Part shown: piece by piece, positions 2,847-48,800 of the stretch | Layout: each line of letters begins with the position of its first letter | Numbering within the stretch: position 1 is the stretch's first letter | Origin: Paraspadella gotoi | Lineage: Eukaryota > Animalia > Chaetognatha | Direction: 5' to 3' | Assembly: GCA_051294375.1 (NCBI GenBank) | Contig: CM119270.1 | Location: 18,335,267 to 18,399,266, forward strand | DNA: 64,000 bases | Translations under genes and position numbers: made by a program | The notes under the pieces: generated by a model | The model's database searches: none | What the model was told of the DNA's origin: nothing | The model's input: only the letters and a program-made list of their open reading frames with translations

Positions 2847-4319
2847 GTGATGGTGGCGGTGTCCCTCCTCGCCATCGGCTCCTCTCTTCTCTTGCGCTTC
2901 ATGATTCCCTGTCTCTGTCTCGGACGGTCGGTGGTGATGGAGCCGCTCGAAGCCTCCAGCCCCTCGCGCGAGATCGTCATCCCGGTGGAGGTGTTAGCAA
3001 ACGCGATCGAGCGATCCAAGCATATGTTGGGCACGGTAAGATTATATTATATACATCTTCATTGTTTAAAAGGTTCCTTCATCTATTGTTTGTATAATTA
3101 TTAACTTCCTTTTCAGATTATAAACGAACCAGATCAGTTAAACCAACCGAAACCCCCGCCGATCGAGTCGTTACTAAGCAACGGGACAGTTTTCGACCCG
3201 ATCCATCGTTGCGACAAATTGAGCATGGTGTTGGACGGATGCCTCTACAACTTTTTGCCTTTTGCGCTGATTTTGGGCATCACCGTCGCCATGACGAGGA
3301 AGATAAAGGTTAGGGGTTAGAGGTTAGAGGTTAGGCGAGCGAGAGGAGAAATTAACCCTAAAGCCTAATACTCAATGTGTTCAATGTTCATACTGATGAA
3401 TGATAACGCAGAAAAAAAAAACCAAATTTTGAACCGAAATTAATATCCTATGGCAACATCCGGGTTGCCTGTGATGCCTATTGGGATGGGGCATCTCACT
3501 GTTGGCTTTGGGGGCTTCCGACCCTCAGTGACGCCTCCAGTCACTGGCGCGGTTACCCAAGGACGGTCTCGCTTTGCCAACGCAGGGGGTCGTTAGGACT
3601 GTGGATGGAACGCATCGCTTGGGATGGTGCGTTCTCCCTATGAGCCAGCGGAATTGGCTGAACGATGGTAGATGTAAGGCGGTGTGAATATACCGTCACG
3701 ATCTAATATTTACATAGAAACTACGTACTAGACTCCAAAGAGAGAAAGAATCATTCTCCATCCTCATTCTCCCCCCCCCACCCCGCAATAAAAACACAAC
3801 CGAAGGCCGCCAAGAGCGCCGCCGAAGAGGCTGGCGTCTCGTTCGCGGACGACGCCGTCATCACGTCCATTCGCGTCTGCCACGCCCTCTGTCTGGTATT
3901 CCTCGTCGCCACTTCGCCCGACACGATCTTCAACGCCATCTTTATCATCACCGCCTACGCCGACGAATCCGCGTTGCACGCCATCAAGGGGGCGTGCTTT
4001 TACGACGCCGTCGTCGCCATCTCGCAAGTTGCGTTGGTCCTCAACGCCGGCTCGGTGTTTGGCGTCGCCTGGCGTCATTACGAAGGATTTAGGTGAGGGA
4101 TAGGATGGCTGAGTAATGAGTAAATGAGAGAATGAAGAAGGAAAAATACTACATTATACACTGTATAATATACAGTACCGAATGTTATATTTTATTTGTT
4201 TTACTTCCTCGTTTGTAAAATGGTAGTGAATTGAGAGTAAAATTGACTTAAATTTAATTAATAAAAATACATTGTTTTTTATACACAGCGATTACATTCG
4301 CAAAAAGACTTGCAAAGGA

Positions 4320-4351
<32 letters not shown>

Positions 4352-4451
4352 AAAAGACAAAGGCTTCAAGGGTGAGAGTTTGAAAGCCTGCGAGTTGGCG
4401 GTCGTCGCCTCTGTCGCCAAGGAGTTGGAATTCAAGAAGGTCGTTGCCTAG
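2847..4451 (+). CDS. Divergent class A (rhodopsin-like) GPCR-like protein, TM4-TM7 and C-tail; 5' exons not identified
   Basis: Spliced exons ~2847-3035, 3117-3308, ~3806-4092 and 4289-4451 (TAG) join in frame. Hydrophobic segments LYNFLPFALILGITVAMTRKI (TM5-like), LCLVFLVATSPDTIF (TM6-like) and ISQVALVLNAGSVFGVAW..EGF (TM7-like). The first visible exon begins at a gcag acceptor. Confidence 0.55.
3449..3700 (-). mobile_element. Twister-containing structured interspersed element, family 1, copy A (intronic in the GPCR-like gene)
   Basis: Closely similar over its whole length to 47345-47599 in the opposite orientation. In ribozyme orientation: 5' hairpin, A-box-like TGGCTCATAGG, B-box-like GTTCCATCC, twister core, two 3' hairpins, ending GCCATA. 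Confidence 0.85.
3501..3581 (-). ncRNA. Type P5 twister ribozyme (predicted cleavage U3555/A3554)
   Basis: GTTGGC-AAA-GCGA-GA-CCG-TCC-TT-GGG-TAA-CCGC-GC-CAGTGAC-TGGAGGC-GTCACTG-AGGG-TCGGAAGC-CCCC-AAA-GCCAAC, read as P5, P2', GA, T1, P1 hairpin, UAA, P2, GC, P3, P4, UCNNAAGC loop. Confidence 0.8.
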
Positions 4452-44921: not shown

Positions 44922-45847
44922 GGCGGTGTCGCAAGGGGTAATTTAGAAAAGCTAGGGACCCCCAACACCCCACCCGTAAATGGGCGGGTTTAATGCTGCG
45001 GGTTTGGGTTCATTTGTCAACGTGCACTTACGAGTTACATATCACTTTATATTCACGCGGAAAACTCCGCATATTTGAAAGACCTAAAATTGCAAATTTT
45101 AGAAAACATTTGCCTAGTTTTAAATCGTATAATTTTAAAACTGGAATGTCATACATAAAAATTTAAATGCAGCGGCGTTGACTCGCAATAGTTCAATTCA
45201 TCAAAATATATTACCGTCGAATATATCAATCTTGGGTAGAAAGCGCAAAAAAAGCGGAGACCTGTCGGACTCGAGAAAAAATTGATAGAGTAAATCTCAC
45301 TATAAATAATAAATGGTAAAAGTAATACAGTGACAATCGACATTGGTCAGTGTACAGCCATTTCGAGGATGCGAGGTTTAAGTTGAGCGAAAATAATGGG
45401 GCGCGAGTGAATAAAGAGAAAAAATGTCGCCGGCGACGGAAATGAGATCGCGTGGTTTTTCTATGGTATTGAGGCGGAATGCAGTATGCAGTATACGCCT
45501 ACGGTGTGCGTGTATCGAAAGTGATTTCCTTCCAGCCCCTACGATGAGATTAAATGGCTGAGACCCGAAAAACTAACATCTACGTCAGCGGTAGAAAACG
45601 AACAATACACAAACTATTCTCACCCGATTTTGGTAGTAGTTTATCATTTGTAAAGTAATTTTTTTGTAAAGGTGTAGCGATCAGTTTTATGCAGATCTTA
45701 TGGTGGTAATTTGTCATTTCAAAAATTGCAGTATTATTGGTACCAATGGTACGGGAACCGGGATTATAAGCCAAGTTGCTTCGATATTCGAACGGCCAGA
45801 GTTACAAACCTGGCGGTAAACCTTTTTTTTAATTTATTTGTCTCTTT

Positions 45848-48800
45848 TCATTTCGACTTCTCTCCCCACTTGAACCCGGGCAGACTTATCATCTTCCTCA
45901 ACTCGGCCGCGCCGCCGCCACCGCCACCGCCCCCGCGACCCTTACCCGACCCGTTTTCAACAGGCTTACCAACCCCACCTCCCCCGCCGTAGCCGCATTC
46001 CTTGCCTTCCTCGTGCCCGCCCTCGCATTCGACGGTGGGTACGTGACCAGAGTCCCACTGGCCCGGGGAGCAGAGTTCGCAGAGGCCGACCAGCGTGCAC
46101 GGTATGCGGGGCAGGATACGAAAGCGGTGAAGGAGGCCGCGAGCTTTGCGCAGGACGAGGGTTCCGTTCATGTGCATCGCGAGGGTAGAGAAGTAGAAGA
46201 GGGTCTCGTCCGAGCGCATGTTTTGACTGTAAGGCGGAAAGGGGCTTCACCACATCAGTTTCAAATTTTCACTAAACGGTTAACAATTCGCACTCAAAAA
46301 TTCTCCCTTTAAACGGCTCACACGATATCGCATTCTCATTCCGTCTCACTTTCCCGACCTGACGATATCGTCGCCATACAATGCGACGATCGCAACGCAA
46401 ACGAATAAGTGAAAGTAATCCGTCTTCCACTGCGCCCAACACGCCTCCCAAATGGCCAGCGTTTCCCGCTCGGGGAATTCCCGCTTGAAGCAGAGGAGGA
46501 TCCATCGGTGGCAGAAGAGGAGCTCCATCGCGTCGCCGAATGACGCCAGGTGGGCGTGGAAGGTGGGAGTCAAAACGCGAAGCAACGCTCTGTGTGGAAG
46601 GCGGAGTAGAGTGGCAACTAATTAGATCAGCATTGAATTGCTGGACTCAAAAGCCGCTTGAAAATGTCACCTTAAATAGCCCAGTTGTTTCTCTATGTCG
46701 TTGTCCCTCGGGGAACTGACGAAGATGGTGTCGTTCATGAGTCCGACGAAGCACCAGAAAGCGTCGGCCTCGTTGCGGACCTGAGAGGAGAGGTGAAGAT
46801 CCGAAGTAGGGAGATCGAGTCTCCGAGACGACGTTTATTTTCCTATTTTTTTTTTTACCTGAACCATAATCGGAGCGAGGAGATCAGACATTCCCTGATT
46901 ATATCCGACTTTCGGACAGTGGAAGGCGAAATCGAGCAAGATGTGTTTCATGGTCGCGACGTTGGGGTTGCGCGCGCCGGCAAAGTATGGGTGGGATCTG
47001 AGGAGAGATAGAGAATGGAAAACAAATATTGATAAAGGATACCTAAAGGAGAAAAGTCATATATCCACCCTTCAATTCACCTGTCCGTCCTCACGACGTC
47101 CTTCTCCACTGTGCACTGGACGCTCCTCCAAAATGACGTCTTCTCCTCCCTCGTCATGTCCTCCCGGCGCCGCCGAATCTCCTCGTACTCCCGCGCGCGG
47201 CGCTCGCGGTGCCGCTGCCGTTCCTCCGAGCTCCAGCACCAATCGTAGTAGTGGAGCAGAAAGGGCCAGACGTCCTGACGAAGTGACGGGTCGAGCCCGC
47301 CGAAGAAGATGGCCTGGAGGAAAGGGAAAAGAAAAATCGTTAATTGTGGCGGTATATTCACACCGCCTGACGTCCACCATCCTTCAGCCAAATCCATTGG
47401 CTCAGAGGGGGAACACACCATCCCAGGCGTAGTGTTCCATCCACAGTCCTAACGACTTCCCTCTGCGTTGGCAAAGCGAGACCGTCCTAGGGTAACCGCG
47501 CCAGTGACTGGAGGCGTCACTGAGGGTCGGAAGCCCCCAAAGCCAACAGTGAGATGCCCCATCCCAATGGGCATCACAGGCAACCCGGCTGTTGCCATAT
47601 AATGTTTATTTTTTCTATTAAATTTGTTATGGTTTCTACTTTGACCCACCTTCCTGAGTTCGTAGTTGTCCCTGACGCTTCCGTCGTCGTCGATGTGCGA
47701 CTTCCACGTTTCCTGGTCGACGACGTCGTATTTCCGTTCCTCCGGGTGGCATTCCTCCGACGGGAGGCTCGAGCTCGAATGAACGGCCAGCATCTTGCAA
47801 CTTGAGAAGAGAAAGTGGATAAAATTAGCAGGATGAAGCGAGAATTAAGGTCATTTTGTAACAATGTAAACAAAGGAAGAATAAAACGAACCTAAAGACG
47901 TTCCTGACGTCATCCACGTCTTCGTCGGGCGCGAAGAGATCGAGGCCTCGAAAGACGTCGACTAACTTGTCGAGTCCTCCGTGGTGAAAGTGGAAGATCT
48001 TGTACTGACTCTCGCGGGAGGCGATGATCAGTTGACCGGAGGACTTGGAATCGTCCGTGAAGAAGAGACGAAGGTATCTGCGAAGAACAAGCAAGTGATT
48101 TAAAATAGACATACAATTAAACAATCTACATAAGACGCGAGAATATAAAACAATCTAAATCAATAAGATTCCTTCCCCTCACAATCACCGCATGTTAGCC
48201 AAATCGACGGAGAAGATGCCGAGCTGTCCCTCGGAAAGATGCTTGAGCCTCTCGACGTTAACGTTGGCGGCGCCGGCGGCGGAAGTGTCGGGAAAGTTAA
48301 GGTTCCTGTTGGCGGCGACGGTTTCCGGGTTGCAGTCGAGAAAGTCGGGTTTGGCGGGCGAATCGTTTCGCGGTGGAGAAGAGGAGGGGGAAGGAGTCGT
48401 CGCGGCCGAGTATCTGACAAAATCAAGAATGTTTAAAGTTTAGATGCATTTAGATTCAATTATAGATTCACGTTAAGCGTTAGCGTTTGTAATTGAAACA
48501 AAATCTCACAATATCGGGGGATCAGAGAGAGAATAGGCGCCGACGAATCTGAGCGGCGAAGCGAGCGTGGACGACGCCGGCGAATCGGCGCCTTCGGTGG
48601 AATCGCTGTCGGCGTCGTCCTCCACTTCTCTCGCCTCCTCCCCTTCCTCTTCCTCATCATTCTCCAGGTCGCTCTTTCTTCGTTGCCTCGTTTTCAACGA
48701 CGGGCTCTGACCCATGGAAGTGGCGCCGTTACAGGCGACGCCGCGCACGACGTTGGCGGCACCCTCGACCCCGCCCACTCTCTCGAAGGCGTCGACGAGA

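What the first reader, a model, noticed from the sequence alone, without database searches (positions are those of the whole stretch)
3449..47599. Dispersed ~200-255 nt Pol III-type elements carrying a type P5 twister ribozyme: a candidate twister-based retrozyme/SINE system
Seen: five related elements in 64 kb (3449-3700, 28513-28741, 35882-36005, 43472-43676, 47345-47599) fall into two families with little primary identity but one layout. The layout is a TRTGG 5' end (CGTGA in the 3449 copy), A-box-like TGGYNCNGAGG, B-box-like GTTC.., a circularly permuted twister, and a 3' end that pairs back to the 5' end. Covariation is extensive. The T1 pseudoknot is CCG/loop-CGG in family 1 and CGG/loop-CCG in family 2. 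P3 is CTGTAAC/GTTACAG versus CTGTAGT/ACTACAG. P4 is CCTGA/TCAGG versus CCCGA/TCGGG. An upstream hairpin changes G-C to A-U between the family 1 copies. Established: twister ribozymes have the UAA...GC...UCNNAAGC...GA-T1 core, and small non-autonomous ribozyme retroelements of animals (schistosome Sm-alpha, newt satellite 2, non-LTR retrozymes) use hammerheads and can form circular RNAs. Inference: this is an analogous non-coding, self-cleaving mobile RNA built on twister instead of hammerhead, possibly mobilised by the Penelope-like or CRE reverse transcriptases seen in the same window. I do not know of a described family with this architecture, but I cannot search to confirm novelty.
Basis: partly seen in the sequence, partly recalled or inferred. 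Interest (0 to 1): 0.93.

Follow-up and report, generated by a model that had tools for sequence, protein, structure and literature searches.

The report
Twister ribozymes in animal solo LTRs
Three families of short repeats in this invertebrate genome carry a tRNA-like segment followed by a twister-type RNA fold that is predicted to cut itself, and their sharp ends and 4-base flanking duplications make them likely leftover end-repeats of a tiny non-coding retrotransposon that would spread through self-cut RNA circles, a cycle I found described only for plant elements with a different ribozyme.

Summary
The five elements are real but form three families, and one 3' end was misplaced: E4 runs 43472-43705 between ACGT/ACGT duplications. 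E5 has TAAT/TAAT and E1 AGAT/GGAT. Contigs of two public runs show sharp ends at both sides and hundreds of different AT-rich flanks, with no tail. This fits integrase-inserted solo LTRs of a Helenus-like mini-retrotransposon, not a SINE or a Penelope/CRE-driven retrozyme. Four copies hold a type-P5-ordered twister core with covarying stems and pseudoknot. A descriptor finds 3 hits against 0.03 in shuffles, but Rfam gives only a sub-threshold twister-P1 match and no P5 hit. In all three families stem P1 is a 6-8-nt palindrome, so two LTRs of one transcript would likely pair and excise a unit RNA that circularises. Three intact cores lie antisense in introns; both sense-oriented copies are damaged. 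Cleavage, Pol III transcription, circles and a full-length copy of these families are unshown. This scan reported the same system before on other DNA of this genome; the solo-LTR reading came from those notes and was retested here.

The parts
3449..3700 (-). E1, family 1 element (likely solo LTR), ends CG...TA, antisense in a 497-nt intron of a plus-strand gene; flanks AGAT (3701-3704) / GGAT (3445-3448)
3499..3584 (-). E1 twister core; predicted cut U3555/A3554; P1 segment TCCTTGGG (palindrome with central U.U mismatches)
28513..28741 (-). E2, family 3 element, ends TA...CA, no TSD found (GGGA/CTTT), sense in a 290-nt intron (28482-28771); ends not checked by reads
28556..28632 (-). E2 damaged twister core; predicted cut U28605/A28604; P1 palindrome GGCGTC; A.A mismatch in the 2-bp pseudoknot, weak P2
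35882..36005 (-). E3, 3'-truncated family 2 copy: tRNA-like segment and the 5' edge of the twister, no cleavage site; nested in a ~600-bp element with 26-bp inverted ends (35450-35475 / 36029-36054)
43468..43471 (+). left target-site duplication ACGT of E4
43472..43705 (+). E4, family 2 element (likely solo LTR), 234 bp, ends TA...CA, no T4 run, antisense in a 360-nt intron
43505..43577 (+). E4 tRNA-like segment; A-box-like 43513-43524, B-box-like 43557-43567; 37 of 56 columns identical to the window's tRNA-Asn
   Evidence: (z=4.2, best of 20 comparisons)
43580..43653 (+). E4 twister core: P5 43580-84/43649-53, GA 43592-93, 3-bp pseudoknot 43594-96 with 43636-38, P1 palindrome 43597-602, predicted cut U43603/A43604, GC 43609-10 with 43641-42, P3 43611-17/43623-29, P4 43630-34/43643-47
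43706..43709 (+). right target-site duplication ACGT of E4
47341..47344 (+). left target-site duplication TAAT of E5
47345..47599 (+). E5, family 1 element (likely solo LTR), 255 bp, ends TG...TA, no T4 run, antisense in a 336-nt intron of a TBC-domain gene
47398..47443 (+). E5 A-box-like TGGCTCAGAGG (47398-408) and degenerate B-box-like TGTTCCATCC (47433-442)
47464..47549 (+). E5 twister core: GA 47480-81, 3-bp pseudoknot 47482-84 with 47528-30, P1 palindrome TCCTAGGG 47485-92, predicted cut U47493/A47494, GC 47500-01, P3 47502-08/47516-22, L4 47527-34
47600..47603 (+). right target-site duplication TAAT of E5

Best explanation
These repeats are likely solo LTRs of non-coding miniature LTR retrotransposons whose LTR holds a tRNA-like segment, likely a Pol III promoter, followed by a twister fold predicted to self-cleave. 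Shown: fixed ends, 4-bp duplications, many insertion sites, the twister core with covariation, and a palindromic P1 segment. Inferred cycle: (1) Pol III starts inside the 5' LTR of a full-length copy and, since the LTR has no T4 run, reads through the internal part into the 3' LTR. (2) The two palindromic P1 segments pair, building two strand-swapped twister cores; each cuts at U/A. (3) The released unit has 5'-OH and cyclic-phosphate ends and holds one whole, permuted LTR; a host ligase would close it. In the monomer circle P1 cannot form fully, which would slow re-cutting. (4) A Gypsy-type RT and integrase working in trans would copy the circle from a tRNA primer and insert full-length or solo-LTR DNA with a 4-bp duplication. 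Rough odds: integrase-type LTR origin 0.85, real twister fold 0.9, catalytically active in some copies 0.75, dimer-favoured cleavage 0.55, circular intermediate 0.55.
For: Ends and TSDs: exact 4-bp duplications at E4 and E5, 3 of 4 at E1. Summed contig depth rises from 175-228 to 1.6-2.2 million within E5 (8,135 contigs laid, run X4) and from 236-246 to 3.1-5.8 million within E4 (17,959 contigs). Listed loose ends: 145 at the 5' and 206 at the 3' end of family 1; 263 and 279 for family 2; flanks AT-rich with agreement 0.39-0.54. Run X9 of another study shows the same ends. One listed joint returns from the 3' end to the 5' end of family 2 with unknown letters between (3 contigs, depth 528), as a two-LTR or tandem copy would give. 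Twister: strict descriptor 3 hits versus mean 0.03, max 1 in 200 shuffles; a looser palindrome-aware scan returns only the four elements at score >=6; E5 aligns to Rfam twister-P1 positions 1-62 with UAA, GC, P3, P4 and L4 in register. Of 19 listed family-1 variants, 3 fall in the core (two in the P3 loop, one turning a P4 mismatch into a pair) and none on catalytic or pseudoknot positions. Dimer: P1 segments GGCGCT, GGCGTC, TCCTAGGG are fully self-complementary (duplex -8.3, -6.3, -11.0 kcal/mol, no hairpin alone); the unconstrained E4 homodimer folds as the swapped form, -63.1 versus -57.6 for two monomers. Precedent: animal Helenus has tRNA-like LTRs, 4-bp TSDs and many solo LTRs; plant LTR retrozymes have 4-bp TSDs, LTR ribozymes, circles and solo LTRs; the published Helenus-2_SyJa/SyUm LTRs show, by my eye, a hammerhead core behind the tRNA segment.
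Against: E2 has no TSD. Termini are TG...TA and TA...CA, not TG...CA (a TA...CA LTR exists among published Helenus). Rfam scores are far below threshold (15.2-15.9 bits versus 67.2) and E4 gets no twister hit at all. My descriptors were written from a recalled consensus after seeing the elements, and E1/E5 are not independent. The E5 and E1 minimum-energy folds, monomer or dimer, do not give the twister stems. P1 is dispensable in tested type-P1 twisters, so monomers may cut; the orientation pattern (3 intact antisense, 2 damaged sense; Fisher p=0.1 by hand) would also fit monomer activity. Family 1's B box has 3 mismatches. No head-to-tail joint is among the 15 of 74 joints shown for family 1. 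15 of 33 listed family-2 variants are CpG-type changes, including pseudoknot positions 43594 and 43638, so many copies are decaying. X4 may be the source sample. No Gypsy helper was seen in the window.
Confidence: 0.6

Rival explanations
1. Same LTR origin, but the twister cuts as a monomer or serves ordinary LTR transcript processing (making a defined 5' or 3' end) and no circle is used; the palindrome may be a packaging/dimerisation signal.
For: P1 imperfections do not lower cleavage in natural type-P1 twisters. Both sense-oriented copies are damaged while three antisense copies are intact, as expected if lone copies cut host transcripts. Twister variants process the 5' end of Perere-3 without circles (abstract).
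Against: Cutting both LTRs at one site leaves no terminal repeat for strand transfer, which circularisation solves (argued for plant retrozymes). Full self-complementarity in three families is unlikely by chance (0.05 for a 6-mer, 0.02 for an 8-mer, 0.14 for the two central pairs alone).
Confidence: 0.2
2. One reading: a Pol III SINE or non-LTR retrozyme with a twister, copied by Penelope-like or CRE reverse transcriptase.
Against: Both ends fixed, 4-bp TSDs, no tail, conserved sequence upstream of the promoter, ends unrelated to the cut site, tandem joins rare. Metazoan non-LTR retrozymes are tandem and lack LTRs. No Penelope domain found.
Confidence: 0.08
3. A cut-and-paste DNA element (MITE with 4-bp TSD) or a plain Helenus LTR in which the twister-like fold is a non-catalytic relic or a chance likeness.
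For: 5-6 bp inverted ends in E5 and E2; no Rfam hit above threshold; CpG-type decay in the core.
Against: E4 has no inverted ends beyond two bases. Catalytic A and G, both pseudoknots and stem covariation are kept across families with near-background overall identity (E2/E5 z=1.0, E4/E5 z=3.4), which needs selection on RNA.
Confidence: 0.12

Closest known systems
Helenus TRIMs (TRIMp3), Kojima 2024, PMC10886601 (main text parts 1-4 of 6; supplement parts 7 and 9 of 11 plus three term searches)
   Same: Non-coding; tRNA-like segment inside a 120-320 bp LTR; 4-bp TSD in animals; many solo LTRs; several families per genome; Gypsy helper inferred.
   Different: The paper names no ribozyme in Helenus ('twister' 0, 'ribozyme' only in a reference title). 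Most LTRs I read there end soon after the tRNA segment, often through a T-rich run; here ~120-150 nt with a twister follow and no T4 run. Boxes here are more degenerate. Helenus-2_SyJa and -2_SyUm show, by eye, a hammerhead core at the same place, not a twister.
Plant LTR retrozymes, Cervera et al. 2016, PMC4918200 (passages and Discussion)
   Same: Ribozyme inside each LTR, 4-bp TSD, solo LTRs, proposed circle as RT template, Gypsy helper.
   Different: Type III hammerhead, ~330-bp LTRs, plants; reported without an internal promoter in the 2020 review (the N. benthamiana abstract reports an LTR promoter). Circles are shown there, untested here.
Metazoan non-LTR retrozymes and Sm-alpha (PMC7761336, PMC6765202, PMC11722881; passages)
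   Same: Small animal repeats with a self-cleaving ribozyme; weak helix that needs a dimer in amphibian and Penelope hammerheads; promoter followed by ribozyme in Sm-alpha.
   Different: Hammerhead, tandem, no LTR/PBS/PPT; these elements are dispersed with 4-bp TSDs.
Type-P5 twister ribozyme (Rfam twister-P5; permutation named)
   Same: Order P5-P2'-GA-PK-P1-UAA-P2-GC-P3-P4-L4-P5; both catalytic residues and both pseudoknots in E1, E4, E5.
   Different: No hit to the Rfam P5 model; P1 is a 6-8-nt palindrome rather than a hairpin; P2 has 3 nt in families 2 and 3.
Twister T-variants of Schistosoma Perere-3 (PMC8501958, abstract and outline only)
   Same: Twister in an animal retrotransposon.
   Different: At the 5' end of an autonomous non-LTR element, with TSDs next to the cut site; here the cut site is mid-element.

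Membership tests
Twister ribozyme (type P5) | U/A cleavage site with general-acid A and general-base G | tested here: met
   E1, E2, E4, E5; residue roles recalled and consistent with the Rfam consensus line
Twister ribozyme (type P5) | Two pseudoknots (2-bp GC/GC and 3-bp) with covariation | tested here: met
   Intact in E1, E4, E5; 3-bp pseudoknot swaps CCG/CGG between families; E2 has one mismatch in the 2-bp one
Twister ribozyme (type P5) | Stems P2, P4, P5 (P3 optional) | tested here: met
   E4 fold shows P3, P4, P5; P2 has one mismatch in E1, E4, E5 and is poor in E2
Twister ribozyme (type P5) | P1 closed as a hairpin | tested here: not met
   6-8-nt palindromes fold no hairpin alone but pair as duplexes
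Twister ribozyme (type P5) | Rfam model score at gathering threshold | tested here: not met
   No twister-P5 hit; twister-P1 partial 15.2-15.9 bits versus 67.2 for E5 only
Twister ribozyme (type P5) | Site-specific self-cleavage | not testable with these tools
   needs in vitro assay
Helenus / TRIMp3 | tRNA-derived sequence with A and B boxes in the LTR | tested here: inconclusive
   Family 2: 37 of 56 identity to tRNA-Asn, z=4.2, ARAGORN only at 70% threshold; family 1: good A box, B box with 3 mismatches; Rfam tRNA no hit
Helenus / TRIMp3 | 4-bp TSD (animal lineages) | tested here: met
   2 exact and 1 near-exact of 4 complete copies; none at E2
Helenus / TRIMp3 | LTR termini TG...CA | tested here: inconclusive
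   TG...TA and TA...CA; a TA...CA LTR is among the published ones
Helenus / TRIMp3 | Two LTRs around an internal part with PBS and PPT | tested here: inconclusive
   None in the window; one end-to-start joint with unknown insert; earlier unreviewed notes report full-length copies elsewhere in this genome, not checked
LTR retrozyme | Self-cleaving ribozyme in each LTR | tested here: inconclusive
   Twister fold in single LTR-like units; activity and paired LTRs unshown
LTR retrozyme | Hammerhead class of ribozyme | tested here: not met
   No hammerhead core in the elements; the one pattern hit at 5936 is outside them
LTR retrozyme | Unit-length circular RNA in vivo | not testable with these tools
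   Only contigs were available; no raw RNA reads
tRNA SINE / non-LTR retrozyme | tRNA head at the 5' end, variable tail and TSD, or tandem arrays | tested here: not met
   Internal tRNA segment, fixed ends, 4-bp TSD, rare tandem joins

The most novel reading that the evidence does not exclude
An animal LTR retrozyme built on twister: a Pol III-driven mini-retrotransposon whose ribozyme is an obligate strand-swapped dimer, gated by a palindromic P1, so that only a two-LTR (or co-packaged) transcript is cut and circularised while the circle and lone LTRs stay largely uncut. With the hammerhead-like core visible in two published wasp Helenus LTRs, this would mean tRNA-promoter TRIMs have recruited unrelated ribozymes at the same place more than once, and that ribozyme-driven circles are a general route for LTR parasites in animals.
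Probability: 0.4. Interest if true: 0.85.

Novelty: new variant of a known kind. Interest (0 to 1): 0.72.

Why it matters
It would join three things so far described apart: tRNA-promoter mini-LTR elements, LTR retrozymes (plants, hammerhead) and twister ribozymes, whose biological roles are mostly unknown. It would give twister a second retrotransposon role, offer a natural dimer-gated twister (dimer cleavage is known for hammerheads), and show that animals have LTR retrozymes, which the reviews I searched describe as plant elements. Each step can be tested with short in vitro transcripts and RT-PCR. The palindromic P1 also explains why standard Rfam scans miss hundreds to thousands of copies.

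Tried and rejected
Whole-genome analysis: no genome is held, so copy number, TSD statistics and full-length copies could not be mined. Summed contig depth is not a copy number; I use junction-contig counts as a floor (hundreds) and give no exact figure. Expression: no RNA holder listed. X9 is a guessed RNA run; it covers host exons and the elements but not the intron flanks, yet contigs show no strand, start or level, so transcription from the element is not shown. X10 and X11 (other organisms) laid nothing on E5, which proves no absence. 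Exact-pattern scans: viral contigs gave 1 match, L001, which lacks the stems and looks like chance coding DNA; metagenome contigs 0 and 0; prokaryote genomes 0. Rfam: no twister-P5 in five scans. The MAFFT alignment of the four cores is out of register at UAA, so I built no covariance model and ran no pair counts; covariation is by hand on three families. Host identity: the 6PGD search gave best named hits at 75-76% across molluscs, echinoderms and others, so only 'invertebrate animal' is claimed. Searches of earlier findings by sequence or relatives returned nothing. Six twister L4 8-mers plus three more searched in the Helenus supplement gave 3 and 3 occurrences, none of the passages shown in a twister context; line breaks and other L4 variants could hide a hit, and I read 2 of 11 parts. 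Literature searches that found no twister-bearing LTR/TRIM or dimeric twister; most subscription papers are outside the library, and Roth 2014 and Lunse 2017 were seen only as reference entries. Rejected: MITE (no inverted ends in E4), Penelope helper (no domain found), E2 as a family-2 copy (67%).

Full report
Observation. All five elements are at the stated coordinates. Self-BLAST pairs E1 (3449-3700, minus) with E5 (47345-47599, plus) at 90% and E3 (35882-36005, minus) with E4 (plus) at 89%. E2 (28513-28741, minus) aligns to E4 at 143 of 213 columns (z=9.8) and to E5 at background level (z=1.0). There are therefore three families. The window is gene-dense animal DNA (syntaxin, Sec62, oxysterol-binding protein, DDI1, TBC-domain, 6PGD, ATG2). 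A 6PGD search gave best named hits at 75-76% across several invertebrate phyla, so I claim only an invertebrate animal.

Twister core. A first loose descriptor found E1, E2, E4, E5 and one AT-rich hit at 17593. A stricter one found E1, E4 and E5; E2 failed on P2. In 200 block-wise dinucleotide shuffles the mean was 0.03 hits (max 1) with the 2-bp pseudoknot required and 0.12 (max 2) without. A palindrome-aware scan returned exactly the four elements at score 6 or more; I ran no null for it. These descriptors came from a recalled consensus and were written after I had seen the elements, and E1/E5 are copies of one family. Rfam gave no twister-P5 hit in five scans. It aligned E5 to twister-P1 positions 1-62 at 15.9 bits (threshold 67.2, E=0.35) with UAA, GC, P3, P4 and L4 in register; E4 got no twister hit. 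Whole-element folding z-scores are -3.42, -2.84 and -3.27. The E4 fold shows P3, P4 and P5; the E5 minimum-energy fold does not show the twister stems. In tested type-P1 twisters, P1 and P2 flaws are tolerated while one flaw in the 2-bp pseudoknot lowers mean cleavage from 0.76 to 0.53 (PMC11662667, section 32 part 1), so E2 is probably weakened and the P2 mismatches of E1, E4 and E5 are not disqualifying.

Ends and abundance. Laying public contigs on E5 and E4 shows a step of about four orders of magnitude in summed depth at sharp borders: 47343-47345 and 47598-47599 for family 1; 43470-43472 and 43705-43706 for family 2. Listed loose ends in run X4 number 145 and 206 (family 1) and 263 and 279 (family 2), with 375 and 368 further rows not shown; their consensus is AT-rich with low agreement, so copies are dispersed. 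X4 may be the source sample; X9, from another study, shows the same ends. Depth is not a copy number, so I say hundreds at least. With true ends, E4 lies between ACGT/ACGT, E5 between TAAT/TAAT and E1 between AGAT/GGAT; E2 has no duplication and E3 is truncated. Termini are TG...TA (E5), CG...TA (E1) and TA...CA (E2, E4). There is no tail. Among joints, none of the 15 of 74 shown for family 1 returns to the start; one of the 15 of 61 shown for family 2 does, with unknown letters between (3 contigs, depth 528).

Promoter-like part. E4 43505-43577 is called a tRNA by ARAGORN only at 70% threshold, and matches the window's tRNA-Asn at 37 of 56 columns (z=4.2, best of 20 comparisons). A/B-box pairs have 3-4 mismatches in total and 1-9 of 100 shuffles score as well; family 1's B box has 3 mismatches (box consensus recalled). 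The segment starts 33 nt into E4 and the A box 53 nt into E5. None of the five elements has a T4 run.

What it is. Fixed ends on both sides, a 4-bp duplication, no tail and conserved sequence upstream of an internal Pol III promoter do not fit target-primed insertion of a SINE. They fit an LTR. I took this reading, and the paper behind it, from earlier unreviewed notes of this scan on the same genome and then tested it by locating E4's end and the TSDs. Kojima 2024 (PMC10886601; main text parts 1-4 of 6) describes Helenus: non-coding TRIMs with a tRNA-like segment in the LTR, 4-bp TSDs in animals, solo LTRs, and a Gypsy helper inferred from PBS. It names no ribozyme in them. Plant LTR retrozymes have the ribozyme in each LTR, 4-bp TSDs, solo LTRs and circles (PMC4918200, passages and Discussion). 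Metazoan retrozymes are described as non-LTR, tandem and hammerhead-based (passages). No full-length copy of my three families is in the window; earlier notes report full-length twister TRIMs elsewhere in this genome, which I could not check.

Mechanism. Between the 3-bp pseudoknot and the cut site each family has a self-complementary segment: GGCGCT (E4), GGCGTC (E2), TCCTAGGG (E5; E1 has TCCTTGGG). None folds a hairpin alone; duplex energies are -8.3, -6.3, -11.0 and -5.9 kcal/mol. Chance of full self-complementarity is about 0.05 for a 6-mer and 0.02 for an 8-mer. The unconstrained E4 homodimer folds into the strand-swapped form (-63.1 versus -57.6 kcal/mol); E2's dimer also pairs the palindrome; E5's and E1's do not give the twister. 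I infer that a Pol III transcript crossing both LTRs pairs its two P1 segments, cuts at both U/A sites, and releases a unit holding one permuted LTR plus the internal part, which is ligated to a circle and copied by a Gypsy-type RT and integrase. Cervera et al. propose that such a circle can yield solo LTRs directly, which would explain why solo copies dominate. Against strict dimer dependence: P1 is dispensable in other twisters, and the three intact cores lie antisense in introns (E1, E4, E5) while the sense copy E2 is damaged and E3, about 150 nt past the inferred stop of a same-strand gene (my reading), ends before the cut site. That 3/2 split has p=0.1 by hand, and LTRs are often antisense-biased for other reasons.

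Variation. Of 19 listed family-1 variants (4% or more), 16 lie in the first 122 nt, 3 in the core (two in the P3 loop, one converting a P4 mismatch to a pair) and none in the last 54 nt. Of 33 listed family-2 variants (3% or more), 15 are CpG-type; they include both partners of one pseudoknot pair (43594 C>T, 43638 G>A), whose linkage is unknown, and none touches U/AA, the GC pair or AAGC.

Helper. The window holds a broken CRE-like element (PHD finger 22172-22957, RT near 23575) but no Penelope or Gypsy domain among 138 ORFs scanned. The end structure argues against either named helper.

Novelty. Eight library searches found no twister in an LTR or TRIM and no dimeric twister; the known retrotransposon twister sits at the 5' end of Perere-3 (abstract) and RTE elements. 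The library lacks most subscription papers, and I read 2 of 11 parts of the Helenus supplement. Verdict: new variant of a known kind (Helenus-like TRIM working like an LTR retrozyme, with twister). Interest 0.72; cleavage, Pol III use, circles and full-length copies remain to be shown.

Noticed in passing
window 21535-26118: Nested insert in an oxysterol-binding-protein gene region: 106-bp inverted repeats (21535-21639 / 26014-26118, 90%) enclose an NDUFS2-like (Complex1_49kDa) intronless fragment at 21716-22168 followed by a broken CRE-like element (PHD finger, RT, poly(A) at 25895-25920).
   Followed up: partly
window 35450-36054: About 600-bp AT-rich element with 26-bp inverted ends (96%), MITE-like, which contains the truncated E3.
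   Followed up: no
window 1416-2761: Cluster of five tRNA genes (Asp, intron-bearing Tyr-like, Glu, Leu, Asn); the family-2 tRNA-like segment resembles the Asn gene most.
   Followed up: partly
PMC10886601 supplement, Helenus-2_SyJa-LTR and Helenus-2_SyUm-LTR: By eye, a complete type III hammerhead core with complementary loops follows the tRNA-like segment; the paper does not mention it.
   Followed up: partly
window 43494-43501 with 43661-43669: An 8-bp stem encloses both the tRNA-like segment and the twister in the E4 fold; it would also form in the predicted circle.
   Followed up: no
flanks of families 1 and 2 (table 7): Loose-end consensus next to both ends reads ATAT/GTAT/CTAT/ATAC, hinting at a palindromic TA-centred 4-bp target preference; agreement is low (0.4-0.5).
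   Followed up: no
window 3309-3340: Short GGTTAG/GGTTAGA telomere-like repeats at the start of the intron that holds E1.
   Followed up: no
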